DNA of 64,000 nucleotides. Origin: a phage. The notes beneath the pieces are model-generated. The model searched no databases and was not told the DNA's origin. It worked only from the letters and a program-made list of their open reading frames with translations. Shown piece after piece: positions 3,094 through 64,000 of the stretch (position 1 is its first letter; every line of letters begins with the position of its first letter). Made by a program: the position numbers and the translations under genes. The stretch lies in sequence record PZ445442.1; one strand, 5' to 3'.

Positions 3094-3291
3094 ATGATTT
3101 ATCGAATCCGTGTAAGAGAAGATGCACCAGGCTGTTACTTTGACTGGCGTGGGTGGTGGTTTCTCCACCCAATGGATGGACTCACAGATAGAATGCTGGA
3201 TGCTGCCCTTTATACAGATACCGATATAGAATATAATCTCTATCTGAAGGACGGTATAGATAACGGCCTGTTTGAAGCAATTCCTGTGTAA
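3094..3291 (+). CDS. hypothetical protein
   Basis: 65-aa ORF with AGGAGG RBS. Confidence 0.45.
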   Translation: MIYRIRVREDAPGCYFDWRGWWFLHPMDGLTDRMLDAALYTDTDIEYNLYLKDGIDNGLFEAIPV

Positions 3292-5734: not shown

Positions 5735-6060
5735 CAGAGATCATCATTTCAACTGCAGGGTATGTATTCCTGACAATCATTGCGCTGACTATTCTGGTGG
5801 CGGTGTATGGATTTGTTATCCTTCCTATTCTTGAGACATTTAGTTTGTGTCGGTGTTGGAGAAAAGCTTACGGTCCACAACCATGGAAGGACTGGCCCCA
5901 CCTGGTGCGCTTAGCGTTCTCTTATGCTTACGATCACTCCAGTAGTGCATGCATAACCGGATACCACGCCCACAACTGGAGCTGGGAAGGGTTGAGGAAA
6001 TGGAATGTTACAAAGACCATACCTCTGCGCATGTACAAACCTAAAAACAAAGACAACTGA
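5731..6060 (+). CDS. putative membrane protein
   Basis: 109-aa ORF, N-terminal hydrophobic stretch, ATGA overlap with upstream gene. Confidence 0.45.
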   Translation: MTEIIISTAGYVFLTIIALTILVAVYGFVILPILETFSLCRCWRKAYGPQPWKDWPHLVRLAFSYAYDHSSSACITGYHAHNWSWEGLRKWNVTKTIPLRMYKPKNKDN

Positions 6061-6095
6061 TACTTGAAAATTCCTGGCATATCAAGTATAAGGGG

Positions 6096-6560
6096 GATTT
6101 CTAAAATGGATTTCCTCCTTTTGATATTTCACCGGGCTGGATATTTTAAAATTCTTAGAAAATCAGAAAATGGATCGAAAACTAAAATGGATTTTTCAGA
6201 GTAGGCGCGACAAGCTGAATAGCTCATCCTATCGTTTGCACCATATTCCAGACCACCATTATAGATTTCCCACACATGCTAACCTCCCTCTACTAGAACT
6301 TCCTCCACTTACCCTTGACCTTCTATGGTAACAATCTAACCACTATCTTGAAGTTGCGGTGCAGCTTTCCAGGTACTCGATCTACTTTTCATTTCAGGGC
6401 TTGGATTTTCTGAAAATTTTTCTCGATAAATTTCTCAGTACTCGATCTGTTTTTCGTTTTCTGAATCGGATTTTCTGGAAATCGTTCCGGATCTCGACCT
6501 GAAATTTTTGGGGACGAAATCTATTTTTCGTTTTCAGAAATGGATTTTTAAAATTTCTAT
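6096..6560. repeat. non-coding island with dispersed AAATGGATTT motifs and three degenerate ~60-bp tandem units (starting about 6373, 6438, 6492)
   Basis: Direct reading; no ORF with RBS. Confidence 0.6.
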
Positions 6561-6689
6561 ATGGGAATATTTTATGGGGCACTGTTTTATAGGAAATTGT
6601 TACGGAGGGTAATTAGCATGCTAATTAAATTTATTAAATGCGAGGGATTCTTATTTAGAATTTTGAATGATAATTATTCTCGTTTGCAG

Positions 6690-7175
6690 AATAACGGGCA
6701 GGCCCGGTGATTGTCTCCCGGCCCCTGCTGCCCCGGCTTGTTATTATAGTATCACACAGGACAAAGAAGGCAAGGATTTTTTGCATAAATTTTTAAATGA
6801 TAATGATAACCGTTCTCATTTTATGAAGCGCCCATCCCCGGTGGTTGTCTCCCCCGTCACCGGTGCCTGCCGTCCTTTCGATAGGTATATTATGCCGCCT
6901 GGCGGGGCCGCTGTCAACACTTTTCAAAAAATTTTTCTAACCTGATGCGCTAACCGTTGCAACCTGGCGGGGCCAGCCTGGCAGGTCCGCACTATAAAGT
7001 AAACAGCTACAGAAGAGGTACAAAAATGAAAGGTAATGCTACTCGCCTGGGAAATGTAGTGATTAATGATACGGAAGCTATCGCCCTGGTTGAAAAGGTT
7101 ATGGCGGGAGCGTTGGAACATAAAGAAGAGTACGAAAAAAATGGTGGTTAACCTGGCGGGGGGCGGCAGGTGGAT
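6690..7175. repeat. GC-rich short repeats (CCGGTG(A/G)TTGTCTCC at 6703 and 6839; CCTGGCGGGG at 6898, 6963, 7152) in AT-rich background
   Basis: Direct reading; inverted copy of the 22-nt GGCAGGCCCGGTGATTGTCTCC occurs at about 16285-16306. Confidence 0.55.
7026..7151 (+). CDS. hypothetical small protein (41 aa)
   Basis: ATG at 7026 after AGAAGAGG RBS; flanked by CCTGGCGGGG repeats. Confidence 0.3.
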   Translation: MKGNATRLGNVVINDTEAIALVEKVMAGALEHKEEYEKNGG

Positions 7176-7282
7176 TCTATCATAAAAATAATTTAAAATA
7201 GTCGTTGACAACAAGGTTAATCATGGTATTATTACCCTACAAGGTGAACAACACCGCACTAACCAGTAAAGAGGATAAATTT

Positions 7283-7480
7283 ATGAACGCATACGGGATC
7301 AAAGTACGTCGCAACACTCGCCAGGTGGTCACCAATCAAGTGATTTGCCGGGTGGATGTAACCATCAACAACGGGCAAGGCCTTTATAAATTTCGTCGCG
7401 GCCATAGCTATACCCTGCAACAGCTTAATCGTTGCGCCCTGACAAAAGGTCAGATCAACCACTGGTTTAATAAAAAATAA
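7283..7480 (+). CDS. hypothetical protein
   Basis: ATG at 7283 after AAAGAGGA; promoter-like TTGACA-N16-TATTAT at about 7205-7232. Confidence 0.5.
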   Translation: MNAYGIKVRRNTRQVVTNQVICRVDVTINNGQGLYKFRRGHSYTLQQLNRCALTKGQINHWFNKK

Positions 7481-7544
7481 GTATTGACATACAGTCCGAC
7501 ACCAAATACACTAAAAGCACAAAAGACACTAAGAGGATAAAATC

Positions 7545-7943
7545 ATGAAAACCACTACCTTTAATTTTGATAATGCAGACTTTTCTTTTTCTGATGTCAA
7601 GAACTGCCGCCGTGATCGTGGATTTTACAAGGCTTATAATCTGGTGGGCCTGGACGATGACAATAATTTGCACGAAGTAGCTGAGATCCGGTATTATGCC
7701 GCCGCCAGCGGGAACACTCACTACTGCGTGTTTTGGATTCACGACAACAAGAACAATAAGTACGGTTATACTGGCGGCAAGGCGAGCGGTCACGGTTACG
7801 ATAAAGCTAACGCAGCACTTGAGAGCGCATTAAATGCTATGGGGATCACTGCCGACGGCTGGATCTACGAAGAAGAGTTTTTGTCGGCACTTGCTGACCA
7901 CCTGGGCTATAAAAAACACATTGTAACATGCGCCCACGAATAA
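7545..7943 (+). CDS. hypothetical protein
   Basis: 132-aa ORF, AAGAGGA RBS, upstream TTGACA-N17-TACACT. Confidence 0.55.
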   Translation: MKTTTFNFDNADFSFSDVKNCRRDRGFYKAYNLVGLDDDNNLHEVAEIRYYAAASGNTHYCVFWIHDNKNNKYGYTGGKASGHGYDKANAALESALNAMGITADGWIYEEEFLSALADHLGYKKHIVTCAHE

Positions 7944-7949
7944 AAATCA

Positions 7950-7977
7950 TTGACACGCTGCAAAATTTAAGTAAACT
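7950..7977 (+). promoter_or_regulatory. sigma70-like promoter (TTGACA-N16-TAAACT) followed by leader hairpin GGCGGGAATGTTTCCCGCC (7988-8006)
   Basis: Hexamers and spacing read directly. Confidence 0.55.
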
Positions 7978-8025
7978 AGACACAAAAGGCGGGAATGTTT
8001 CCCGCCAGCACAAAGGAAAAAGATC

Positions 8026-8421
8026 ATGAATAAGAACGTACGCCGCATCATGAACGAACTGGCAAACGATGAAAAAATTATTGATATGCATTTGGTCAAC
8101 ATTTGCCGCCGTTGTGTAACATATAACAACCGCGCCGCAAAAGCGCGTGAGATGAACGCAAAAGGCACCTTAAAGCCCTTTCAGGTGGTTGTAAAATCTA
8201 TAACTAGCGCAGCAGGCCAGGCGCAGGACCACAACAACGAGAGCGCTAATATTGATCCGTCTTACGTAATGAAACGGATCCGGACTTGCAAGAATAAAGA
8301 GCAGGTATATAACGTCATAGATTGGCTGGACTCCCTGGGCGATGTGGTTTACAATAGGTTTTCTGCAGCTATCGAGATCCAGCTTGACAGATTGGACGGG
8401 AAAGTACTAAAAACTTATTGA
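8026..8421 (+). CDS. hypothetical protein
   Basis: 131-aa ORF with promoter, leader hairpin and AAGGA RBS. Confidence 0.55.
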   Translation: MNKNVRRIMNELANDEKIIDMHLVNICRRCVTYNNRAAKAREMNAKGTLKPFQVVVKSITSAAGQAQDHNNESANIDPSYVMKRIRTCKNKEQVYNVIDWLDSLGDVVYNRFSAAIEIQLDRLDGKVLKTY

Positions 8422-8422
8422 G

Positions 8423-8467
8423 TTTATTTTTAGATGGCCTTGACACCAGGGCCATCAATAAAGTAAA
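8423..8467 (+). repeat. conserved 45-bp intergenic element copy 1 (TTATTTTTAGATGGCCTTGACACCAGGGCCATCAATAAAGTAAAC)
   Basis: Near-identical copies at 9043 and 12775; contains inverted repeat GATGGCC/GGCCATC around TTGACA. Confidence 0.7.
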
Positions 8468-8500
8468 CTAACCACAGTTGAGCGGAAAGGGGGCTTAAAG

Positions 8501-8620
8501 ATGAGCACTACACGCCAGCACACAAAGGTAACCATCATCGTTTGCATCATTGGGTACATCCTGGCGCAAATGTTGATGGGTAGCGCCAACGGTGTCGCAA
8601 AATTTTTCTTAAACTTTTAA
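8501..8620 (+). CDS. small hydrophobic peptide (39 aa)
   Basis: ATG at 8501 after AAGGGGG RBS; below track cutoff; hydrophobic core IIVCIIGYILAQMLMG. Confidence 0.35.
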   Translation: MSTTRQHTKVTIIVCIIGYILAQMLMGSANGVAKFFLNF

Positions 8621-8648
8621 TTGACAAGCTAACTTAAATCGATATAAT
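8621..8648 (+). promoter_or_regulatory. sigma70-like promoter TTGACA-N16-TATAAT
   Basis: Perfect consensus hexamers with 16-nt spacer, upstream of gene 8700. Confidence 0.65.
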
Positions 8649-8699
8649 AAGCACATAAACGGGAAAACTTCCCAGAACACACAAAAGGAGAAAAACACC

Positions 8700-9041
8700 A
8701 TGACTACTATGACCGCCTCAGAAAAAGCTATGCAGATCGCTGAACTGAAAAAACAGATCGCAGACCTTGAGAATAAGATCGATAACTTTGAAATCGACGA
8801 GGACAAGTACGACGAAAACTATGATGAATGGTTAGACGAGATCTACGGCGAAATTATGATCGGAAACATTTCTTTTCTTCCGTCGCGTATCCTCAAGGAG
8901 CTAGATCCTATCGCTTACCGCTGCGGATTTAGCGACTACATCGACAGCCTGGATATTGAGGACGATGAAGAATACCAGGAATTACAGACAGAGTTAGAAG
9001 AAGCAAAAGAAGAGCTTGCGGAGCTGGAAGAAAACGAGTAA
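8700..9041 (+). CDS. hypothetical highly acidic protein
   Basis: 113-aa ORF, AAGGAG RBS, D/E-rich. Confidence 0.55.
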   Translation: MTTMTASEKAMQIAELKKQIADLENKIDNFEIDEDKYDENYDEWLDEIYGEIMIGNISFLPSRILKELDPIAYRCGFSDYIDSLDIEDDEEYQELQTELEEAKEELAELEENE

Positions 9042-9042
9042 G

Positions 9043-9087
9043 CTTATTTTTAGATGGCCTTGACACCAGGGCCATCAATAAAGTAAA
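9043..9087 (+). repeat. conserved 45-bp intergenic element copy 2
   Basis: Identical to 8423-8467. Confidence 0.7.
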
Positions 9088-9130
9088 CTTTATACTGTTA
9101 ACACTGAACTAATGCATAGGAGTTAAAACC

Positions 9131-9376
9131 ATGGCAGCACTAATCACCAAATATTATGCCCCTACCAACACCAAAAGCGCCCGTATCATGGTAAAAGGCT
9201 TCGGACGTAAAAAGGTGTACACCTGGGATTATGCCTTAGACACGGAAGACAACTACACCAACGCAATGACCGATTTTATTAATGAACTAAATAAGCAGAT
9301 CTTGACAAGTTATAAAGTGACCGATATTGCTTATATAGGTGAAGGCGGGATCTGTTTTGTAGGCATTGTGAAATAG
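9131..9376 (+). CDS. hypothetical protein
   Basis: 81-aa ORF, RBS TAGGAGTTAAAACCATGG (same leader as gene at 13745). Confidence 0.5.
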   Translation: MAALITKYYAPTNTKSARIMVKGFGRKKVYTWDYALDTEDNYTNAMTDFINELNKQILTSYKVTDIAYIGEGGICFVGIVK

Positions 9377-9450
9377 TTATTTTTTCGGTGGTCCTGGTTG
9401 CAGGGCCATCTATAAAGATAATTTATTAACACCATGAAAGGAGAAAGTAC

Positions 9451-9990
9451 ATGATCAGCGGGGCAAGTTTTATTATTGGCGCTATTGCTACGGCTTTAAT
9501 TGTAAATAAGATCCAGGATAAAAAGGAAAGAGGAAGTACCGCCCTTGCAGAATATCCATTTTGGGCATTCAACGATAACGAAGATTATATTATAAAGTAT
9601 AAAAATAAAGAAGGTGACCAAGTAACACCGCGACCGATCCCGGCTTACAAAATGCAGGAAACACTATACCGCCTGGAGGCGGGAGGCGCAAAAATTGTAG
9701 ACTTTTGGGGATACGACCACACAGATCAGGAAGTTATAAAGCGCCGTATCCGGGCTATTCAGGCCAATATTGAAGTTAGCAAGGGGGAATATATGAAAAT
9801 TAATTTCGAGAAAATTGTAAAGCGCCCTCATGATTCCGAAGAGCTGCCAGAACGCCGCCAGCGTAACAATAAACTGAATAAGCCAAAAAGGTTTGGGAAG
9901 ATCTGGCGTAATCATTATGATCGTAAATTGCCCGGCCTACTTTTGGAACGTGAACGACAGGCAGAACGATACCGCCATAAAGACAAATAA
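9451..9990 (+). CDS. hypothetical protein with N-terminal transmembrane segment
   Basis: 179-aa ORF, AAAGGAGA RBS, N-terminal hydrophobic helix, basic C-terminus. Confidence 0.55.
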   Translation: MISGASFIIGAIATALIVNKIQDKKERGSTALAEYPFWAFNDNEDYIIKYKNKEGDQVTPRPIPAYKMQETLYRLEAGGAKIVDFWGYDHTDQEVIKRRIRAIQANIEVSKGEYMKINFEKIVKRPHDSEELPERRQRNNKLNKPKRFGKIWRNHYDRKLPGLLLERERQAERYRHKDK

Positions 9991-9998
9991 CAACCAAC

Positions 9999-10029
9999 GC
10001 CCCGCCATTGTGCGGGGCTTTTTATTTCT
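9999..10029 (+). terminator. intrinsic terminator (GCCCCGC-cattgt-GCGGGGC + T-run)
   Basis: Perfect 7-bp GC stem followed by TTTTTATTT directly after stop of gene 9451-9990. Confidence 0.8.
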
Positions 10030-10231
10030 ATCCTACGAATAGCGCCCCTGGTTGGCCCCACAAACGCCACAAAAGCCCCTACCTATGCAATCCCCTTTCT
10101 TGACCTGAAAACAACGTCTAGGGCCGTTTTATGGCGTTAAAAATATTATTGACAGTGATTTTATTCAAAGCTTGACACCTTGGAATAGTCCGGATATACT
10201 AACCACATCAAAGCAAGAAGGAGTAAACGCC

Positions 10232-10492
10232 ATGCGTAAATTAAAAAATTTTGATAAAGTAGATGTTGTCCTGAATAATTTTTACTACTGCAATAATAAA
10301 GCCGTTTGGTGGCGTGATAGCTCCACCGATAAAGTTAAAGCGCGCTTTCTCCAGGGGCACTGGCAAGGCCGCCCAGTGATTAAAATCTTAGGGCAATTGG
10401 TAGCGTTTAAAAATTGCCACCGTGTTGACGACGTTGAAGATATTTTGAACATTTTACGCCACAATAATTTAAAAAATAGTGTTGACAAGTAA
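10232..10492 (+). CDS. hypothetical protein
   Basis: ATG at 10232 after AAGGAG; promoter TTGACA-N17-TATACT at about 10170-10198. Confidence 0.5.
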   Translation: MRKLKNFDKVDVVLNNFYYCNNKAVWWRDSSTDKVKARFLQGHWQGRPVIKILGQLVAFKNCHRVDDVEDILNILRHNNLKNSVDK

Positions 10493-10566
10493 GCCTCAAT
10501 AAGTATACTTAAACACACAGGCGGGAAAACTTCCCGCCACTAACAAAGAAAATAGGAGAAAATATC

Positions 10567-11190
10567 ATGACCACCGTTAACATTACTACAGGTTACAATT
10601 TATCTTTCGACGTGCTGACCGACGAACAAAAAGAAAAAGCCGTTGAAATGGTCCGCGAAAGAGAAGAACACAGCGGGGATAATTTTTTTGCAGAAAGTGT
10701 AATTGAATACTATAAAGAATATGTTTTTCCAGAGTATGGCCTTGAAGATACCGAAGTACATTGGTCAGGCTTTTGGTGCCAGGGTGACGGCGCGTCAATC
10801 AGTGCGGAAAACGTGGATTTAGAAAAATTCTTGCGTAAAGTAAAGGCCCTGACCAAGTTCCGATCAATTCGTCACTTGTTCGGCACAATGCACGATGGCG
10901 AGCTATCCGCAAGTGTTGAGCGTGATCCATATAGCCGCTATAGTCACGAAAACACTGTAAGCGGGTACATCGATACTACATGGCTAGACCTGACCGCCAA
11001 ACAAGAAAATAAAGTGGAAGATCTGGAAGAGCTGATCACCGAGACGGTACGGGAGCTATCCCGCAAGGTTTACGTAGACCTGGAGGAGGCCTATCTTGAG
11101 CAATTTACCGCCGAAAACTTGATCGGCCTTATCGAGGCAAATGATTGGCGGTTTGATGTGGATGAGCATGGCGAGATGAGTTTTTCATAA
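10567..11190 (+). CDS. hypothetical acidic protein
   Basis: 207-aa ORF; promoter TTGACA-N16-TATACT (10482-10509), leader hairpin GGCGGGAAAACTTCCCGCC, RBS AGGAGA. Confidence 0.55.
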   Translation: MTTVNITTGYNLSFDVLTDEQKEKAVEMVREREEHSGDNFFAESVIEYYKEYVFPEYGLEDTEVHWSGFWCQGDGASISAENVDLEKFLRKVKALTKFRSIRHLFGTMHDGELSASVERDPYSRYSHENTVSGYIDTTWLDLTAKQENKVEDLEELITETVRELSRKVYVDLEEAYLEQFTAENLIGLIEANDWRFDVDEHGEMSFS

Positions 11191-11279
11191 ATAAAGTGTT
11201 GCAATAATCTAAAAACCTGCTATATTAAAACTCAAGGGGCAAGACGTTTGCCCCCACACAAAACAAAGAGGAAAACATC

Positions 11280-11660
11280 ATGAAAAACACTACTAAAGCT
11301 ATTGACACCGTCATGTTTAACCTGGTTACATTCCGTGAAGATATGAAAGATCTTCCTCGTGAAACAGTGTGCGACCATATCGAAAACTATCGCAAACTAA
11401 TCAAAGAGTTGCCTTTAAAACGTGATCAATATGCGGCTAACGCCATGCTTAATGCCATGATCAAAAAGATGATCCAGTGTGATTTAACCCTGGCCTATGA
11501 TTATGCAGGCGGTCGTTTTGCAGTATACAATCAGCCCGTGCCCGGTATGAGCACCACCGAAGAATTGCACGCGCTCAATCTAAAACAAGACGTGTGGGAT
11601 AGTATGCCTCGCGTGGTGGTATGGGTAGAAAGCGGAAAGATTTACGGCGATAATTTTTAA
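11280..11660 (+). CDS. hypothetical protein
   Basis: 126-aa ORF; promoter TTGCAA-N16-TATATT, leader hairpin GGGGCAAGACGTTTGCCCC, RBS AGAGGA. Confidence 0.55.
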   Translation: MKNTTKAIDTVMFNLVTFREDMKDLPRETVCDHIENYRKLIKELPLKRDQYAANAMLNAMIKKMIQCDLTLAYDYAGGRFAVYNQPVPGMSTTEELHALNLKQDVWDSMPRVVVWVESGKIYGDNF

Positions 11661-11724
11661 TCAGGTAGCAGGCGGCATATTTGCCGCCTTATTGTTAATC
11701 AGAACTGTAAAAGAGGTACATAGA

Positions 11725-12096
11725 ATGGAATTTATTATTTTGGCTGTATTTGTTGCCTTGTTCAACGCCTGGATCGCTGGCAAGATGGGTAGATCCGCCT
11801 TTTTATGGTTTATTATATCTATTTTCCTGGGGGTGGTTGCAACTATTGTACTTGTTATCCTTGCAATTGTTGACAAGGGGAATAATAGAAAGGGTAAAGT
11901 ATTTTCAGACCTGTACGACGCTCAAACGTTTGTCAACGCCTATTATAGTGATCTTCCAGTCTCCCTACGCTGCAGCCTGGCACAACAAGTTTTCGATGAG
12001 GCTAAAACCAGAGATCAAGCCCATGAGATATGTTTAACTGAGGCGGATCGCCTATTTGAGAGGAATAGAAAATATGTGGGCCAACCGTTTAAATAA
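11725..12096 (+). CDS. putative membrane protein (two predicted TM helices)
   Basis: ATG at 11725 after AAAGAGG; hydrophobic segments. Confidence 0.5.
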   Translation: MEFIILAVFVALFNAWIAGKMGRSAFLWFIISIFLGVVATIVLVILAIVDKGNNRKGKVFSDLYDAQTFVNAYYSDLPVSLRCSLAQQVFDEAKTRDQAHEICLTEADRLFERNRKYVGQPFK

Positions 12097-12295
12097 TGCC
12101 ACATTAATTAATCCCTTTAGTGAAGATTTGAAGCCAGCCGCCTGGCGTGATGGATTCAATAACGAACGCTTTATTTTCAAGCCTGATCTTGAGGAATTTT
12201 ATAACAATGGATCGAACAACGACAGAGATAATTTTTCTTGTGGTGTGCGTAGTGATGGTACTCCTGGGGGCCATTGTAAACCACGTCACTACTAA
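12074..12295 (+). CDS. hypothetical protein (uncertain; overlaps alternative small membrane-peptide ORFs)
   Basis: ATG at 12074 after GAGAGG; competing small ORFs at 12207-12332 and 12316-12432 each with RBS. Confidence 0.3.
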   Translation: MWANRLNNATLINPFSEDLKPAAWRDGFNNERFIFKPDLEEFYNNGSNNDRDNFSCGVRSDGTPGGHCKPRHY

Positions 12296-12438
12296 CAGGG
12301 GGAAAGGGGGAGACGATGACACCCAAGGATAAGCCCCGCACCGATAAGGCGCGCCGTGTTATGGTATGGCTTGAGATCATCGCCCTTGAAATATTGTTAG
12401 GGGTAGGGATGTACTTTATCGCTGTAAGTAACTAAGAA

Positions 12439-12467
12439 CGGCCCCCCGATCATGGGGGCCTATCTTT
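12439..12467 (+). terminator. intrinsic terminator (GGCCCCC-gatcat-GGGGGCC + T-run)
   Basis: GC stem-loop followed by TATCTTTT. Confidence 0.7.
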
Positions 12468-12572
12468 TAAAAAAATTCTTCCGGGGTGTTGCAATCCGGT
12501 CCGGAATGTGGATAATAACAATCAACGGGGAGCTAATCCCCACCACCACAAAAACCAGAAAGGAGAAACAAA

Positions 12573-12773
12573 ATGAGCAACAATATCCGCGTTATTAACT
12601 TCAAAAAAGAAGAAAAAATTGCCGTGCTGATTGACGGTCAAGAAATCTTCAAGGGCGACTATGAAGATCATCAAACGGCGATTAGTATCACTCGCGTGAT
12701 TGGTTACCATAATTTTTACCCCCAAGGCGCTGAGGCAGCGGTTAAACGAATCAAAGAGATTGTAGGCCTGTAA
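12573..12773 (+). CDS. hypothetical protein
   Basis: 66-aa ORF; promoter TTGCAA-N18-TAATAA, leader hairpin GGGGAGCTAATCCCC, RBS AAGGAGA. Confidence 0.5.
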   Translation: MSNNIRVINFKKEEKIAVLIDGQEIFKGDYEDHQTAISITRVIGYHNFYPQGAEAAVKRIKEIVGL

Positions 12774-12774
12774 A

Positions 12775-12820
12775 ATTTATTTTTAGATGGCCTTGACTCC
12801 AGGGCCATCAATAAAGTAAA
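12775..12820 (+). repeat. conserved 45-bp intergenic element copy 3 (one mismatch: TTGACT)
   Basis: Aligns to 8423-8467 and 9043-9087. Confidence 0.7.
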
Positions 12821-12867
12821 TTTAAACCCTGTTAAAAATACCACGCAGTTAACAAGGAGTGATAGAC

Positions 12868-13167
12868 ATGTTTATCCAGGCTAATAATCTTTATTTCTTT
12901 GATGGTCAGATCGTAGACGGCGTGGAGGTGGAAATCACCGGGTGCCCTAGCGGTCAGGTTATGACTTTTCGGAATAATGCCTTTGATGATTCTCATATCG
13001 TTATGAGAATGGAAGTTAGTAAGCTGGATGACAAGAAAACACTTATCGACTATTCCGTCAAAGATCATCCAGACTACCACATGATCTATGGTGATTTGTG
13101 CATTGTTGACCGTGACAAGGTTGGCGGCATTGTGATCGCTATTGTGAACGATGTTTTCTCAAACTAA
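12868..13167 (+). CDS. hypothetical protein
   Basis: ATG at 12868 after AAGGAG. Confidence 0.5.
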   Translation: MFIQANNLYFFDGQIVDGVEVEITGCPSGQVMTFRNNAFDDSHIVMRMEVSKLDDKKTLIDYSVKDHPDYHMIYGDLCIVDRDKVGGIVIAIVNDVFSN

Positions 13168-13184
13168 TTTCAGCAGGTAATTTT

Positions 13185-13535
13185 ATGAAAGTAAAACTAT
13201 ATTACCTTAATGAGCTTAACCCCCTTGCCCAGGTCCGCGCCCTGGCTAATACCTTGATTTGTGAGAAATCTGTATATTGTGTTGAGCTTAACGCCATGCG
13301 TGAACGTCTCAAAGGTGGTTACTTTGACATCCATGCTGCAATCAACGGCCTGAATATAGAATTTATCCGCTTACGTAACAGCCGCCAGAATCTGGCAAGA
13401 ATGGAACAAGATCCGGCCCACCTTCGTAAGCTGGTTATTGAAAATCATCTGATGTTTAATGCCGATGGTGATTATTACCATTTTCACCGTAAACGCTGGT
13501 ACCGTAGCGGCAATATAGGAAAGAATGCAAAATAA
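13185..13535 (+). CDS. hypothetical protein
   Basis: 116-aa ORF. Confidence 0.5.
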   Translation: MKVKLYYLNELNPLAQVRALANTLICEKSVYCVELNAMRERLKGGYFDIHAAINGLNIEFIRLRNSRQNLARMEQDPAHLRKLVIENHLMFNADGDYYHFHRKRWYRSGNIGKNAK

Positions 13536-13572
13536 GGCCCCTGGCAGGGCCTGCAGCGATATAATCACATAA

Positions 13573-13604
13573 AGGCTATGCGGTTGCATAGCCTTTATTA
13601 TTTT
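13573..13604 (+). terminator. intrinsic terminator (AGGCTATGC-ggtt-GCATAGCCT + T-run)
   Basis: 9-bp perfect stem followed by TTATTATTTT. Confidence 0.8.
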
Positions 13605-13744
13605 GGCGTTACAGCGGCCCCCAAGGCGCTTAAAAAATTTTTAAAGAAGTACTTGCATCAAGTCCTACAATATGGATAATAAAGGGTGTCGGGGGGGGGC
13701 GGTGAGGCCTCCAATCATTAACCGGATAGATAGGAGTTAAAACC

Positions 13745-14029
13745 ATGGCTATTGTTACCGTTGGCGATGTAGTGGAAATGGAAGCAAAATACTTAAAAGC
13801 GGGTATGCATATCCTACGCAACGATCTTGAACTAGTCCTGACAATGGTTGACTATAACCCAGGGCAAGATTATCCAAGCATCGACTACTTTTTTGAGTAT
13901 GTTGATGAAGAGTTGAAAGAGGATGAGGCCTATTGCGGTGAGTTCTGCAATTTCTTTTGTCCTGATGAGGTTGTAAAGGTTATCTATCAACCTGGCGTAC
14001 CTTTCCCGCTGCACGCTATCAATAAATAA
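13745..14029 (+). CDS. hypothetical acidic protein
   Basis: 94-aa ORF, RBS TAGGAGTTAAAACC. Confidence 0.5.
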   Translation: MAIVTVGDVVEMEAKYLKAGMHILRNDLELVLTMVDYNPGQDYPSIDYFFEYVDEELKEDEAYCGEFCNFFCPDEVVKVIYQPGVPFPLHAINK

Positions 14030-14092
14030 ACCTGGTGGGGCCGAAAAGGCCCCCTCCTGAAACTATGAAAAAATAAAGAGAGGTAAATCATC

Positions 14093-14326
14093 ATGATGGA
14101 ACAAATTAAACGCGCTGAGTCTATTAATGGCAATGTGATCTATTTTGTCAGCAAAAACGAAAAAGGCGTACCATATGCGGCGGTAATAGTACAACCTGAC
14201 GGCGATTATTGGTTTACTGTATACGGATCTTATTCTTTCGGGCGTCCGGTTCATGATAGAATTTTGAAAGTAGCAAATCCGACCGGGAAAAATATCACAG
14301 CAGAAAAATTTTTTGAAAATAGTTGA
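14093..14326 (+). CDS. hypothetical protein
   Basis: 77-aa ORF, RBS AGAGAGG. Confidence 0.5.
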   Translation: MMEQIKRAESINGNVIYFVSKNEKGVPYAAVIVQPDGDYWFTVYGSYSFGRPVHDRILKVANPTGKNITAEKFFENS

Positions 14327-14402
14327 CATGACCATATAAGACTGTAATATATAAATCAAAGGGGGGCAACAAGCCCCACCAACCACAAAGAGGATAAAAA
14401 TC

Positions 14403-14582
14403 ATGGCTATTATTGCAAAGACTGAGATCGTAGGCTTAGATTCTATTCTCCTCGCATATGAGGAAGCTATAGAAATGTATGTGGTTTCCTATGGTGAGTA
14501 TATTCGTGAATATAAATCTATTGATCTGGCTTTTGAATGTTATATTCGCCAGGTAAATAAAGCATATGATGATTATCGTTAA
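14403..14582 (+). CDS. hypothetical protein (59 aa, below track cutoff)
   Basis: Promoter TTGACA-N16-TAATAT (14321-14348), leader hairpin GGGGGGCAACAAGCCCC, RBS AAGAGGA, ATG 14403. Confidence 0.45.
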   Translation: MAIIAKTEIVGLDSILLAYEEAIEMYVVSYGEYIREYKSIDLAFECYIRQVNKAYDDYR

Positions 14583-14667
14583 AATAGTTTGACAACAATT
14601 ACAAATCGGGTAGAATGTATTTCGTAGGGCGGCAATGATGCCGCTCACAACTAAAAGAGAGATCATC

Positions 14668-14862
14668 ATGGCGCTTAAAAAACTAACAAGCAATACTCGT
14701 TGGGATGAAATCGACGGGGAAGTTTACATTTTTGCCCGTAAACCAGGGGATCAAAAATGGTCAAAGGCTTTTACTTGCCATCCTGCAACAATAGATCTGA
14801 TAAAAAGTCAAGGACTACGTGAAGCAGTAGCAAGAAGTTTACTGATCCCTTGTAAAAATTAG
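14668..14862 (+). CDS. hypothetical protein
   Basis: ATG at 14668 after AAAGAGAG; promoter TTGACA-N16-TAGAAT upstream. Confidence 0.5.
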   Translation: MALKKLTSNTRWDEIDGEVYIFARKPGDQKWSKAFTCHPATIDLIKSQGLREAVARSLLIPCKN

Positions 14863-14939
14863 TTTGACAACAGTCAACAATCTGGTAAAGTGTACTACAT
14901 AGCGCGGGAATACTTCCCGCCATTAATGAGGGTAATTTA

Positions 14940-15077
14940 ATGAAAACTTTCAACGCAACAGCCTCGACAATTGGTTATATTATTACAGTACAAGCCGTGG
15001 ATCTGGTAGCAGCAGCAAACAAGATTAAAAAGATGATTCCGCCAGGTAGTGAATTTTCCGTTTGGGAAGTAAAATAA
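14940..15077 (+). CDS. hypothetical small protein (45 aa)
   Basis: Promoter TTGACA at about 14866, leader hairpin GCGGGAATACTTCCCGC, RBS TGAGGGTA, ATG 14940. Confidence 0.4.
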   Translation: MKTFNATASTIGYIITVQAVDLVAAANKIKKMIPPGSEFSVWEVK

Positions 15078-15160
15078 ATCTTGACAATAGTTTATTACTT
15101 GATAGACTGTATTTCGTAGGGCGGGGCAATAAGGCAACGCCCATTAATGAGGGTAGAATC

Positions 15161-15265
15161 ATGTTAGAGAAAATTTTCACGGTTGTAGTAGTTGGCCTGG
15201 CATTATCGGTTGGAGTGGTTGCAACTATGGCTAACATGATCCTATCTTCCCACGGTATCGGTTAA
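15161..15265 (+). CDS. small hydrophobic peptide (34 aa)
   Basis: Promoter TTGACA at about 15071, conserved leader, RBS TGAGGGTAG, ATG 15161; single TM-like helix. Confidence 0.35.
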   Translation: MLEKIFTVVVVGLALSVGVVATMANMILSSHGIG

Positions 15266-15275
15266 GGTGAATCAA

Positions 15276-15491
15276 ATGATCACGAATAAGACAGGTAAAA
15301 CAGAATTTTTACGCGGCTTGCAAATAGGTAAGCCTGAGATCTGGCATTGCACTAAAACACCACGTGACGAAATGAAAGACTTCACCGCCACGCTGCAACG
15401 GGTAAAGATATCCATCACGCAGAAAAAGGCCTTGATAGTGGTGGAAGGTGAGATCCCTCAAACCGTTGTTATAGTTGAGCGTACAGCATAG
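15276..15491 (+). CDS. hypothetical protein
   Basis: ATG 15276 (track uses GTG 15267). Confidence 0.45.
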   Translation: MITNKTGKTEFLRGLQIGKPEIWHCTKTPRDEMKDFTATLQRVKISITQKKALIVVEGEIPQTVVIVERTA

Positions 15492-15582
15492 TTTAATTTA
15501 TAGCGATACCTGAAAATTAACCAATAAATCATAAACAGGCGGTTACCGCCGCCTTAAACGTAGCAGAAAGAGGCTAGACACA

Positions 15583-15867
15583 ATGAAAAAGATGATCGCA
15601 GTAGTTGCCCTGGTTGTTGGACTTAATGCGCCTGTAATGGCTAAAGAGCTGGCAAAAGAGGTTAATCTAACGGATATCCATGCCGTCAATCAAATCGGGG
15701 TTACTTATCGCTTATGCCTTGCCGCTAAAACTTTTAATGACGGCACAACAGAGTACTACGGATTCGAGGGTATCCGGTGCGGTAAGCTTGCTCGCGACCT
15801 TAAGGAAGATCCAGACCTGGAAGATCTGCCCATCACCGTAAACGGTAAAGCTTACGTAAACCGTTAA
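15583..15867 (+). CDS. putative secreted/periplasmic protein
   Basis: N-terminal signal-peptide-like MKKMIAVVALVVGLNAPVMA; RBS AAAGAGG. Confidence 0.5.
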   Translation: MKKMIAVVALVVGLNAPVMAKELAKEVNLTDIHAVNQIGVTYRLCLAAKTFNDGTTEYYGFEGIRCGKLARDLKEDPDLEDLPITVNGKAYVNR

Positions 15868-15870
15868 CCA

Positions 15871-16005
15871 TGAGAAAGATAATCATCACCTTGGGGATTG
15901 TGGCTGGATCGCTGGCGCTCTTTCCCCTTATGGTTAGGTATGTGCTGATCAGTATTGTCCTGGTAGTCAGTGATCTATTGGGAACGGTTGGCACCTTGTT
16001 TTAAA
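15871..16005 (+). CDS. small membrane peptide (44 aa)
   Basis: ATG immediately after upstream stop; two hydrophobic stretches. Confidence 0.35.
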
Positions 16006-16016
16006 GAGCGATAAAA

Positions 16017-16208
16017 ATGAATATCGAACAAGTTAGAAAGGTATTGGCGGTACTGCGTTATCATAATCATAGAAAGGTTATAGACGATCCTGATTATGTT
16101 GATTCAAGTCTGGAAGGGGATACACTGCAAGCCATAAGCAACATGCAAGAATTGCTCAAGCGCATGACAGAGAAAAACCGACCGGACTACATAGGCGAAA
16201 AAATATAA
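16017..16208 (+). CDS. hypothetical protein
   Basis: 63-aa ORF. Confidence 0.45.
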   Translation: MNIEQVRKVLAVLRYHNHRKVIDDPDYVDSSLEGDTLQAISNMQELLKRMTEKNRPDYIGEKI

Positions 16209-16224
16209 TCCTTATAAACTACAA

Positions 16225-16255
16225 AACAGGGCTTGCAATGGTCCTGTTTTTTGTT
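16225..16255 (+). terminator. intrinsic terminator (stem AACAGGG/CCTGTT + T-run)
   Basis: Hairpin followed by TTTTTTGTT after gene 16017-16208. Confidence 0.65.
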
Positions 16256-16419
16256 ATACTTGTTTCACGGCAGGCACCTGGCGACGGGTGGAGACAATCA
16301 CCGGGCCTGCCTGTCATATAAGAACTATAAAAACCGTTGACATCTGCCAGGTGGTGGGGTAACATTTATCTTGAAGGGGCAAAAGTGCCCACACAACAAC
16401 CAGAAGAGAGGAAAACATT

Positions 16420-17313: not shown

Positions 17314-17457
17314 TACAACAAGTTACGGTCAGGGGGGTAATAAAGCCCCTTGATCACATAAAAATTATGCTATCCCTGGTTGACAGGGATCGGCAGTTTT
17401 GCTATATTCTTTTTTGAAGGGGAGTTGTAAGAAAATTAACTAAGAGGTAAAAACACC

Positions 17458-63717: not shown

Positions 63718-64000
63718 GAGTTGCTACACTGTTTATTGTGTGCTTGTTATTATGTGGGTGTGCAACAAGCGTTGAGAGAGAATACAAGATTGACCCTCCG
63801 GATGTAGGAAGGTTGATTGTTAAACCCCCGGAAGGTGCCATGAAACCACCTGCTAAAGCTATGCCTTTGAAGAAAGGTGCGCCAGATGCAGTGAATTCTG
63901 GCATTATGAGGGATAATAATCTGTCTTGTAGCAATGATAGAGCTAAATTGATCATTTTGCAAGACTATATTAGAACACTGTTTCCAAAGGAGAGAGGTTA
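63714..64000 (+). CDS. putative o-spanin (Rz1-like lipoprotein), 3' end beyond window
   Basis: MRVATLFIVCLLLCGCATS lipobox, Pro-rich mature region; ATGA overlap with i-spanin stop; AGGAGGG RBS. Confidence 0.55.
   Translation, partial: MRVATLFIVCLLLCGCATSVEREYKIDPPDVGRLIVKPPEGAMKPPAKAMPLKKGAPDAVNSGIMRDNNLSCSNDRAKLIILQDYIRTLFPKERG

What the first reader, a model, noticed from the sequence alone, without database searches (positions are those of the whole stretch)
8423..12820. Second promoter-like class: near-identical 45-bp intergenic element with TTGACA inside a stem-loop
TTATTTTTAGATGGCCTTGACACCAGGGCCATCAATAAAGTAAAC occurs three times (8423, 9043, 12775), each immediately after a stop codon and 30-50 nt before the next start; degenerate relatives ending in ATAAAG(T/A)AA occur at 9377 and 6963. 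The inverted repeat GATGGCC/GGCCATC encloses TTGACA. The spacing to ATAAAG does not fit a standard sigma70 -10, so this may be a phage-specific promoter, a processing site, or a terminator-promoter junction.
Basis: seen in the sequence. Interest (0 to 1): 0.6.

Follow-up and report, generated by a model that had tools for sequence, protein, structure and literature searches.

The report
Promoter-in-hairpin intergenic cassette, rV5-like phage
A roughly 50-base repeat between small early genes of an rV5-like coliphage most likely combines a host-type promoter with an RNA hairpin and acts as a recombination point for gaining and losing genes, a kind of element already described in T4-like phages.

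Summary
The window matches a Vequintavirus (rV5-like coliphage, 100% identical to phage EmilHeitz over the region compared). Two identical 45-mers lie at 8424 and 9044, a 2-mismatch copy at 12777, and a diverged but structurally identical copy at about 9375-9423. The proposed relative near 6963 shares only a 12-mer and is not a member.

- TTGACA lies 18 bp upstream of a -10-like TAAACT/TAAATT, giving a sigma70-type promoter match.
- The whole promoter sits inside a two-tier hairpin of 10 bp + 10 bp with a 2x3 internal loop and a tetraloop. It is stable only in plus-strand RNA. G.U pairs and compensatory changes support it in 35 variants from 16 phage sequences.

The element occupies the promoter slot in a one-promoter-per-gene early region. 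In other phages, hybrid copies mark exact deletions of the genes between two copies. In the phi92-like phage KKE7M, a copy forms the edge of an imported gene cassette, and its -35 and -10 line up with those of the resident promoter it displaced.

Best reading: a PeSL-type promoter/stem-loop cassette, previously described in T4-like phages. The hairpin geometry also resembles T7 RNase III sites. Promoter activity and RNA processing are inferred, not shown. Interest is modest.

The parts
8421..8469 (+). Copy c1, the full two-tier hairpin. Lower stem 8421-8430/8460-8469; internal loop 8431-8432 and 8457-8459; upper stem 8433-8442/8447-8456; loop ACAC 8443-8446. Embedded -35 TTGACA 8440-8445 and -10 TAAACT 8464-8469, with an 18-bp spacer. 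The stop codon of the upstream gene (8419-8421) touches the base of the stem. The downstream gene starts at 8501.
9041..9089 (+). Copy c2, with the same architecture. -35 TTGACA 9060-9065; -10 TAAACT 9084-9089. Upstream stop 9039-9041; downstream gene starts at 9131.
12773..12823 (+). Copy c3. Loop ACTC, -35 TTGACT 12793-12798, -10 TAAATT 12817-12822. The outer lower-stem pair is A-U where c1 has G-C, a compensatory change. Upstream stop 12771-12773; downstream start 12868.
9375..9423 (+). Diverged copy c4. Same two-tier hairpin (upper stem GGTGGTCCTG/CAGGGCCATC, loop GTTG; lower stem AGTTATTTTT/AAAGATAATT), with four G.U pairs and two swapped A-U/U-A pairs relative to c1. It has no recognisable -35; the only -10-like hexamer is GATAAT (9419-9424). 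The upstream stop TAG 9374-9376 overlaps the stem base. The downstream gene starts at 9451.
6993..7004 (+). TATAAAGTAAAC 12-mer upstream of the gene starting at about 7027. It shares only the -10-region motif and is not a member of the hairpin family.
8470..9040 (+). Gene cassette between c1 and c2: a 39-aa ORF (8501-8620), a consensus sigma70-type promoter match (8621-8648) and a 113-aa ORF (8700-9041). Together with one element copy it forms the 620-bp unit that is precisely absent in magaca, ECP32 and IMG/VR contig L009, and by span also in ECP26, each leaving a hybrid c1/c2 element (not read for ECP26).
9090..9374 (+). 81-aa gene (9131-9376) between c2 and c4. It is absent in phage 241Ecol014PP, where a hybrid c2/c4 element remains with the crossover inside GGGCCATC-ATAAAG.

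Best explanation
The element is a composite intergenic cassette of the PeSL (promoter-early stem-loop) kind.

**At the DNA level** it most likely provides a host sigma70-type early promoter for the small gene downstream. The parts are an AT-rich upstream tract, -35 TTGAC(A/T), an 18-bp spacer and -10 TAAA(C/T)T. The predicted transcription start is about 7 nt past the hairpin.

**At the RNA level** the same 49 nt, when transcribed by read-through from the upstream gene, fold into a 20-bp two-tier hairpin that begins at the upstream stop codon. This hairpin is inferred to mark or insulate the end of the upstream message. The most plausible routes are RNase III-type processing or 3'-end stabilisation. 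Intrinsic termination is not plausible.

**At the genome level** the three near-identical copies (the 45-mer plus the conserved bases flanking it), and even the diverged fourth copy, act as substrates for homologous recombination that deletes, inserts or swaps the flanked gene cassettes.

What is shown here: sequence, structure, covariation, strand specificity, position, and recombination junctions. What is inferred: promoter activity and the fate of the RNA.
For: **Promoter**
- TTGACA-18-TAAACT scores 10/12 in c1 and c2. TTGACT-18-TAAATT scores 9/12 in c3.
- In the run of early genes from 7027 to 13167, most genes are preceded by a consensus-type promoter. The four genes that lack one are preceded by this element.
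- The same AAGTAAACT -10 context occurs in consensus-type promoters: window 7950, rV5 P194, and muut and UAB_1.
- In KKE7M the element's -35 and -10 align with those of the resident promoter seen in the insert-free relative muut. The element is now the only promoter-like sequence in front of the conserved 5' hairpin and gene.
- PhagePromoter predicted the same hexamers in the Gotham record.

**RNA hairpin**
- Free energy is -22 to -25 kcal/mol, with z of -4.8 to -6.1.
- All 35 variants fold identically on the plus strand. The mean is -22.6 kcal/mol against -13.7 on the minus strand, and c4-type copies reach only -4 to -9 on the minus strand.
- 97% of cells are paired. Four lower-stem pairs show changes on both sides. 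The covariation score is 0.183 against 0.116 in shuffles (0 of 500 reached it) and at most 0.037 with slid partners.
- All four one-sided changes in the upper stem keep pairing through G.U.
- Most other substitutions fall in the loops: ACAC/ACTC/ACTT/ATTC/ACCC/ATAAC in the main copies and GTTG/GTAG/GTAA/GCTG in c4.

**Recombination**
- Hybrid c1/c2 elements with an exact 620-bp deletion occur in magaca, ECP32 and L009; ECP26 shows the same shortened span.
- A hybrid c2/c4 element occurs in 241Ecol014PP.
- The element forms the 3' edge of a 474-bp cassette moved into a different subfamily, in KKE7M.

**Match to the published kind:** the PeSL description fits.
Against: - No transcript data exist for these phages in the library searched, so neither promoter firing nor RNA ends are shown.
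- The 18-bp spacer and the 4/6 match in the -10 are suboptimal.
- Copy c4 keeps the hairpin but has no -35, so structure and promoter are separable and the TTGACA could be secondary.
- Within the main copies, TTG is also constrained by the stem, so -35 conservation is not independent evidence.
- Only 3-4 copies exist per genome, against about 50 PeSLs in RB49.
- The hairpin lacks a U-tract, so the terminator half of the PeSL concept is not supported here.
- In Gotham, c1 has lost its 3' arm, so the element is dispensable at that site.
- Other deletions in this region (rV5_ev146) do not use the element.
- The covariation rests on few independent events among closely related phages (90-100% identity).
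Confidence: 0.6

Rival explanations
1. A pure RNA element. The hairpin is an RNase III processing site of the T7 type, or a nuclease-blocking 3' stabiliser, in polycistronic early mRNA. The TTGACA/TAAACT match is incidental and no transcription starts here.
For: - The structure, not the -35, is the part retained in the diverged c4 copy.
- Strand-specific G.U pairs point to plus-strand RNA.
- The geometry is a 10-bp upper stem, a tetraloop, a 2x3 internal loop and a 10-bp lower stem, about 20 bp when stacked. T7 R1 and R0.3, folded here, give 9-bp upper stems and shorter lower stems (7 and 6 pairs) but the same 2x3 internal loop.
- c1-c3 carry U.G and U-A at upper-stem pairs 8-9, next to the closing pair and the tetraloop. 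This is the position and identity of the canonical UA/UG distal box in T7 R1.1.
- The pair that corresponds to proximal-box position 2 is A-U, so the strong GC/CG antideterminant is absent (the register is inferred).
Against: - In c1-c3 the element occupies the promoter slot.
- In KKE7M it replaces a resident promoter in register. Under this reading a conserved gene would be left without a promoter.
- Loop positions 1-2 (AC, completing TTGAC) are conserved in almost all main copies, while positions 3-4 vary.
- c4 lacks the U.G of the distal box.
- Proximal-box positions 1 and 3 are non-canonical in the inferred register.
- There are no cleavage data.
Confidence: 0.2
2. A promoter plus operator. 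The 10-bp inverted repeat around the -35 is the DNA binding site of a dimeric phage or host regulator that shuts these particular early promoters off. RNA folding is irrelevant.
For: An inverted repeat centred on the -35 is a classic operator layout. Only a few promoters carry it, which could define a small regulon.
Against: - The two arms are not sequence-symmetric. They differ by transitions that give G.U in plus-strand RNA but A.C on the other strand. c4 has four such positions, and its minus-strand and DNA folds are not significant.
- The second helix pairs the upstream T-tract with the -10 region and shows compensatory changes. An operator model does not predict this.
- c4 keeps the arms but has no promoter to regulate.
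Confidence: 0.08
3. A phage-specific promoter, middle or late, recognised through the (T/A)ATAAAG(T/A)AA motif, by analogy with the T4 late promoter TATAAATA.
For: The ATAAAG motif is shared by all five sites, including 6993, which has no hairpin. PhagePromoter marked an 8-nt site (locus 3131-3138) on this motif in the c4 copy of Gotham.
Against: - c1-c3 have AATAAAG, lacking the first T of the T4 motif.
- rV5 has no gp55, gp33 or gp45 homologues, and its proposed late motif is different (TggTAaAAtA).
- The sites lie among small early-type genes driven by consensus sigma70-type promoters.
- (T/A)ATAAAG is common throughout the window, mostly inside genes.
- In the lower stem the motif is explained by pairing with the T-tract.
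Confidence: 0.04
4. A functionally neutral repeat: a duplicated intergenic segment, or a small palindromic selfish element with terminal inverted repeats, that persists only because it spreads by recombination.
For: Near-identity of the copies, palindromic ends (AGTTTATTTT...AAAGTAAACT), presence at indel junctions and in a horizontally transferred cassette, and loss of half the element in Gotham c1 without loss of the phage.
Against: - Copy number is fixed at about 3 and at the same loci in about 120 genomes, with no copies at new sites.
- There are no target-site duplications.
- Compensatory and wobble-only changes indicate selection on pairing.
- Placement relative to the stop codon, the SD and the start codon is precise.
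Confidence: 0.08

Closest known systems
PeSLs (promoter-early stem-loops) of T4-like phages RB49/phi1, PST/T4 and nt-1/KVP40 (Arbiol et al. 2010, PMC2839356; Comeau et al. 2014, PMC4122927)
   Same: - Intergenic, directly after the stop codon of a small ORF in an AT-rich tract.
- A sigma70-like -35/-10.
- A stable stem-loop that can overlap the -35 (one of the five published subclasses).
- The SD and start of the next small ORF follow.
- Repeated in the plastic early region.
- Found at deletion, insertion and replacement junctions between close relatives.
   Different: - A different phage lineage (Vequintavirinae). BLAST of the element found it only in rV5-like records, so there is no sign of sequence homology to published PeSLs.
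- Only 3-4 copies, not about 50.
- An 18-bp spacer.
- The hairpin is a two-tier 20-bp helix that swallows the whole promoter, pairing the upstream T-tract with the -10, rather than a short G(n)-loop-C(n) stem.
- No U-tract, so terminator activity is doubtful.
- No experimental test of promoter or attenuator function.
RNase III processing sites of the phage T7 early region (R0.3, R0.5, R1, R1.1, R1.3)
   Same: - Intercistronic position.
- An upper stem of 9-10 bp capped by a tetraloop, a small asymmetric internal loop (2x3 in the predicted folds of R1 and R0.3), and a lower stem.
- U.G/U-A at the distal-box position, as in R1.1.
- In T7 these sites also lie within a few tens of bases of promoters (E. 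coli promoters B and C, phi1.1A/B, phi1.3, with site positions taken from my own knowledge of Dunn & Studier 1983).
   Different: - No sequence homology is established.
- In T7 the promoter and the processing site are adjacent, not superimposed.
- Proximal-box pairs 1 and 3 are non-canonical in the inferred register.
- c4 lacks the distal-box U.G.
- Cleavage is untested.
Bacterial intergenic palindromic repeats that affect mRNA: REP/BIME elements in E. coli, and Correia/nemis elements in Neisseria, which carry promoter hexamers and are cut by RNase III. This comparison rests on my own knowledge and was not checked here.
   Same: Short repeated palindromes between genes, transcribed as part of mRNAs, forming hairpins that stabilise or process transcripts. 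Some also contribute promoter elements and act as recombination sites.
   Different: Those are chromosomal, high-copy and partly mobile. This element is phage-borne, has 3-4 copies at fixed loci, and shows no sign of transposition.

Membership tests
PeSL (promoter-early stem-loop) cassette | Intergenic, immediately downstream of the stop codon of the upstream ORF, in an AT-rich tract | tested here: met
   The stop codons end at 8421, 9041, 12773 and 9376. In c1, c2 and c4 the hairpin begins at or inside the last stop-codon bases.
PeSL (promoter-early stem-loop) cassette | Sigma70-like -35 and -10 boxes at functional spacing | tested here: met
   TTGACA-18-TAAACT scores 10/12 in c1 and c2; TTGACT-18-TAAATT scores 9/12 in c3. 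This is not met for c4, which has no -35. It is a consensus match only.
PeSL (promoter-early stem-loop) cassette | Stable stem-loop within or overlapping the promoter | tested here: met
   Free energy -22 to -25 kcal/mol, z -4.8 to -6.1. The fold is conserved in 35 variants.
PeSL (promoter-early stem-loop) cassette | Followed by the Shine-Dalgarno sequence and start codon of a small ORF in a hyperplastic early region | tested here: met
   The starts lie 27-46 nt downstream, each preceded by a purine-rich Shine-Dalgarno-like stretch (GGGGG, GGAG, AAGGAG, AGGAG). The neighbours are 39- to 179-aa hypothetical proteins.
PeSL (promoter-early stem-loop) cassette | Located at indel or replacement junctions between closely related phages | tested here: met
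   Hybrid c1/c2 elements in magaca, ECP32 and L009 (ECP26 by span only), a hybrid c2/c4 element in 241Ecol014PP, and the cassette edge in KKE7M.
PeSL (promoter-early stem-loop) cassette | Demonstrated promoter activity and attenuator/terminator activity of the stem-loop | not testable with these tools
   This needs reporter fusions or transcript mapping. No transcriptome study of a Vequintavirus surfaced in three literature searches, none of which required that term.
E. coli RNase III substrate of the T7 type | About two helical turns (about 20 bp) of double-stranded or coaxially stacked RNA | tested here: met
   10 + 10 bp separated by a 2x3 internal loop. The requirement is stated in PMC1540722.
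E. coli RNase III substrate of the T7 type | An internal loop or bulge that restricts cleavage to one strand and leaves a 3' hairpin | tested here: met
   The 2x3 asymmetric loop is conserved. The same loop size is predicted for T7 R1 and R0.3. Its consequence for cleavage is inferred.
E. coli RNase III substrate of the T7 type | Distal box UA/UG, and a proximal box without GC/CG at position 2 | tested here: inconclusive
   c1-c3 have U.G and U-A at pairs 8 and 9 below the closing pair, as in R1.1. Proximal-box position 2 is A-U in the register inferred. Positions 1 and 3 are non-canonical, and c4 has C-G in place of U.G.
E. coli RNase III substrate of the T7 type | Cleavage by RNase III in vitro, or rnc-dependent ends in vivo | not testable with these tools
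   No such data are available.
Intrinsic (rho-independent) terminator | A GC-rich hairpin followed directly by a U-tract | tested here: not met
   The terminator scan does not call it. On both strands the T-rich tract lies 5' and the A-rich tract 3' of the stem.
T4-type late promoter | TATAAATA motif, with gp55/gp33-type factors encoded by the phage | tested here: not met
   The motif is AATAAAGT in c1-c3. rV5 has no homologues of gp55, gp33 or gp45.
Any curated RNA family (Rfam 15) | A covariance-model match | tested here: not met
   No hit on the element at E <= 1.

The most novel reading that the evidence does not exclude
The same 49 nucleotides are truly bifunctional. As DNA they form a sigma70 promoter. 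As read-through RNA they form a T7-like RNase III processing site whose cleavage separates the upstream message and leaves it with a protective 3' hairpin. This would be a superimposed promoter/processing module, not merely an adjacent pair. It would also serve as a portable junction for exchanging gene cassettes between phage subfamilies.
Probability: 0.3. Interest if true: 0.5.

Novelty: new member of a known kind. Interest (0 to 1): 0.33.

Why it matters
If confirmed, PeSL-style promoter/stem-loop cassettes would extend beyond T4-like phages to the rV5-like group, which is widely used in phage therapy and biocontrol collections.

It would explain part of the gene-content variation in their early regions. 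Exact cassette deletions occur between copies, and one cassette has moved into a phi92-like phage by promoter-to-promoter recombination.

It would also add four predicted promoters or transcript boundaries that are missing from the rV5 GenBank annotation and, for the sequences searched, from the published rV5 promoter table.

The T7-like hairpin geometry gives a cheap, specific hypothesis to test: rnc-dependent processing.

Tried and rejected
- **Rfam scan of 6000-14000:** no hit on the element.
- **Exact-pattern scan of IMG/VR with CAGGGCCATCWATAAAG:** only Vequintavirus contigs carry the element. The other 11 loci are chance matches inside unrelated sequence.
- **Covariance model R1 over the whole window with filters off:** no further copies, and the 6963 relative is rejected.
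- **Intrinsic terminator:** rejected, because there is no U-tract on either strand.
- **DNA cruciform or operator:** disfavoured, because the minus-strand and DNA folds are weak, especially for c4.
- **Tracing the element to more distant relatives through the downstream 81-aa protein:** homologues outside the genus lie in unrelated siphoviruses and Pseudomonas phages. No orthologous context was available, so this line was dropped.
- **Literature searches for Vequintavirus transcriptomics or a prior description of this repeat:** nothing relevant. The rV5 paper's promoter table contains neither the stem sequences searched nor entries P191 or P193.
- **Whether other strong sigma70 matches in the first 22 kb are embedded in hairpins:** only c1 and c2 are, plus c3, which falls below that scan's cut-off. 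One unrelated upstream hairpin lies at about 17360-17400.
- **CRISPR-repeat mimicry (RNA anti-CRISPR) and ToxI-like decoys:** considered from memory and rejected, since I see no resemblance to E. coli repeats. Not formally tested.

Full report
**Identity of the window.** Window 6800-13000 is 100% identical to Escherichia phage EmilHeitz (MZ501062.1). It is 90-99.9% identical to more than 100 other Vequintavirus (rV5-like) coliphage genomes. The region is a run of small plus-strand ORFs of unknown function. Most are preceded by a near-consensus sigma70 promoter match, TTGACA-16/17-TAnnnT.

**The observation.** The 45-mer occurs exactly at 8424-8468 and 9044-9088, and with two mismatches at 12777-12821. 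None occurred in 100 shuffles. Each copy begins 2-3 nt after a stop codon and ends 32-46 nt before the next start codon. The relative at about 9377 is a true member. The one at about 6963 shares only TATAAAGTAAAC, does not fold better than shuffled sequence, and is not found by a covariance model of the family.

- A -10-like hexamer, TAAACT (TAAATT in copy 3), lies 18 bp downstream of TTGACA. The consensus scan therefore lists all three copies as sigma70-type promoters, at 10/12, 10/12 and 9/12. ATAAAG is not the -10.
- The plus-strand RNA folds into a two-tier hairpin:
  - lower stem AGUUUAUUUU/AAAGUAAACU (10 bp)
  - a 2x3 internal loop
  - upper stem GAUGGCCUUG/CAGGGCCAUC (10 bp)
  - tetraloop ACAC
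- Free energy is -22 to -25 kcal/mol, with z of -4.8 to -6.1. The whole promoter, from the upstream T-tract to the -10, lies inside the hairpin, and the upstream stop codon touches its base.
- The diverged copy at 9375-9423 has the identical architecture, with a different loop (GUUG), four G.U pairs and two swapped A-U/U-A pairs. It has no -35.

**Is the structure selected?** I collected 35 distinct variants from 16 phage sequences: the window, 12 GenBank records and 3 loci from 2 IMG/VR contigs.
- 97% of cells pair.
- Four lower-stem pairs show changes on both sides: G-C/A-U, U-A/C-G, U-A/G.U or A-U, and A-U/U-A.
- All four variable upper-stem pairs change on one side only and stay paired through G.U.
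- The covariation score is 0.183, against 0.116 in shuffles (0 of 500 reached it) and at most 0.037 with slid partners.
- Most other substitutions fall in the loops.
- Every variant folds to the same shape on the plus strand. The mean is -22.6 kcal/mol against -13.7 on the minus strand, and the diverged type drops to -4 to -9. As DNA its minus strand is not significant.

The selected structure is therefore most likely plus-strand RNA, meaning read-through transcripts from the upstream gene. One caveat applies: the phages are closely related, so the independent events are few.

**Is it a promoter?**
- *Position.* Genes starting at 7283, 7545, 8026, 8700, 10233, 10567, 11280 and 12573 each have a consensus-type promoter match. 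The genes at 8501, 9131, 9451 and 12868 have this element instead. Of 20 strong sigma70 matches in the first 22 kb, only these are embedded in a hairpin.
- *The -10.* The same AAGTAAACT context is used by consensus-type promoters: window 7950, listed as P194 in the rV5 paper's table, and promoters in the phi92-like phages muut and UAB_1.
- *A natural promoter swap.* The Justusliebigvirus KKE7M carries a 474-bp segment that is 93.5% identical to window 8620-9093.
  - Its left junction lies inside a promoter spacer shared with the recipient.
  - Its right junction lies in the -10 of the element.
  - In the insert-free relative muut, a single promoter (TTGACA-16-TAAACT) sits at that place.
  - The element's -35 and -10 align with that promoter, with a spacer 2 nt longer, in front of the same conserved 5' hairpin and gene.
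  - If the element were not a promoter, that gene would have lost its own.

None of this is a measurement. The rV5 GenBank annotation does not mark the element, and the paper's promoter table lacks its stem sequences and any P191 or P193 entry. PhagePromoter marked it in the Gotham record.

**Recombination.** In magaca, ECP32 and IMG/VR contig L009, a single hybrid element joins the upstream flank of copy 1 to the downstream flank of copy 2. This removes exactly 620 bp, namely two genes and a promoter; ECP26 shows the same shortened span but its junction was not read. These phages are 90-99.9% identical to the window in the flanks. The event is therefore either recurrent or has been spread by recombination.

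In 241Ecol014PP a hybrid of copy 2 and the diverged copy removes the 81-aa gene, with the crossover inside GGGCCATC-ATAAAG. In Gotham, copy 1 has lost GGGCC from its 3' arm, which destroys both the stem and the spacing, so the element is dispensable at that site. Other deletions, in rV5_ev146, do not use the element.

**Distribution.** BLAST of a 55-nt query finds the element in 121 phage records, usually 3 places each, essentially all of them rV5-like. There is no Rfam match. Beyond the four copies, the model finds only three marginal matches in the 64-kb window (E 2.3-9.5, 12-15 bits).

**Comparison with known systems.** The description of PeSLs in RB49/phi1 reads as follows: stop codon, AT-rich tract, sigma70 promoter, a stem-loop that may overlap the -35, then SD and start; repeated in hyperplastic regions; found at indel junctions. 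It fits feature by feature. The differences here are:
- the phage lineage is different
- there are only 3-4 copies
- the helix is long and two-tiered
- there is no U-tract, so I do not accept the terminator half of the concept here.

The hairpin's geometry instead resembles T7 early RNase III sites. Folding T7 R1 and R0.3 gives a 9-bp upper stem with a tetraloop, a 2x3 internal loop and a lower stem. R1.1 has U.G/U-A at pairs 8-9 below the closing pair, as copies 1-3 do. That is the canonical distal box. Proximal-box position 2 is A-U in the inferred register, but positions 1 and 3 are non-canonical, and the diverged copy lacks the U.G. Membership is therefore inconclusive and cleavage is untested.

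**Verdict.**
- The element is real, conserved and structured.
- Most likely (about 0.6) it is a PeSL-type composite: a sigma70-type early promoter embedded in an RNA hairpin that acts on read-through transcripts, doubling as a recombination junction.
- The RNase III reading (about 0.3) is the most novel possibility not excluded.
- A phage-specific promoter and a classical terminator are both unlikely.
- Interest is modest: this is a new member of a known kind, with one clean natural promoter swap as supporting evidence.

Noticed in passing
window 7988-8006, 8660-8674, 10520-10538, 11235-11255, 12523-12545; also downstream of the promoters at 14323, 14589 and 15081: Many consensus-type sigma70 promoter matches in this early region are followed within about 45 nt by a short GC-rich hairpin (for example GGCGGGAAnnTTCCCGCC, -13 to -15.5 kcal/mol). 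It lies just after the -10, at or near the predicted 5' end of the transcript and before the SD. The same layout is seen in phi92-like phages (L020, L028, L029). These look like PeSLs with the stem-loop downstream of the -10, or like 5' mRNA stabilisers.
   Followed up: partly
window 6898-6909, 6963-6974, 13540-13551, 14031-14042 (52993-53004 is probably unrelated): A third intergenic repeat, CCTGGCGGGGCC, gives 5 matches with at most 1 mismatch, against 0.11 expected. At 14031 it forms GGGGCC-GAAAA-GGCCCC. A similar motif occurs in SYGMH1 (L022, about 9960). Its function is unknown.
   Followed up: partly
L020 3001-3474 (Escherichia phage KKE7M, PQ356295.1): A 113-aa coiled-coil gene (window 8700-9041), with its promoter and the downstream element, has moved between subfamilies, from Vequintavirinae to Stephanstirmvirinae, at 93.5% nucleotide identity. 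Both junctions lie inside promoter sequences.
   Followed up: yes
L024 (Escherichia phage rV5_ev146, LR699804.1), relative to window 8012-8513 and 9938-16296: This rV5_ev genome carries a 0.5-kb and a 6.3-kb deletion in the same early region. Their junctions are not at the element, so other recombination points exist.
   Followed up: partly
search results: 17 records named 'Campylobacter phage' with host C. jejuni (for example MG065635 C12, and A141) are 93-100% identical to E. coli vequintaviruses here. A further set matches phi92-like phages. The host labels of these records look doubtful.
   Followed up: no
window 9451-9990: The window has a single 179-aa ORF where rV5, Gotham, Alma and others annotate two overlapping ORFs of about 117 aa and about 65 aa. 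In 241Ecol014PP the second is annotated 'bacteriophage T7, Gp1.1'. This may be a fusion, a frameshift or an annotation difference.
   Followed up: no
window 17355-17410: The promoter match TTGACA-17-TATATT at 17380 is preceded by a different stable hairpin that overlaps its upstream region (-16.8 kcal/mol, z -3.2). It may be a terminator/promoter pair unrelated in sequence to the element.
   Followed up: no
whole window versus MZ501062.1: By offset, window position 1 corresponds to EmilHeitz coordinate 76759, so position 64000 would fall at 140758. That is beyond the 139980-bp record. The window may come from a differently permuted or different, near-identical genome.
   Followed up: no
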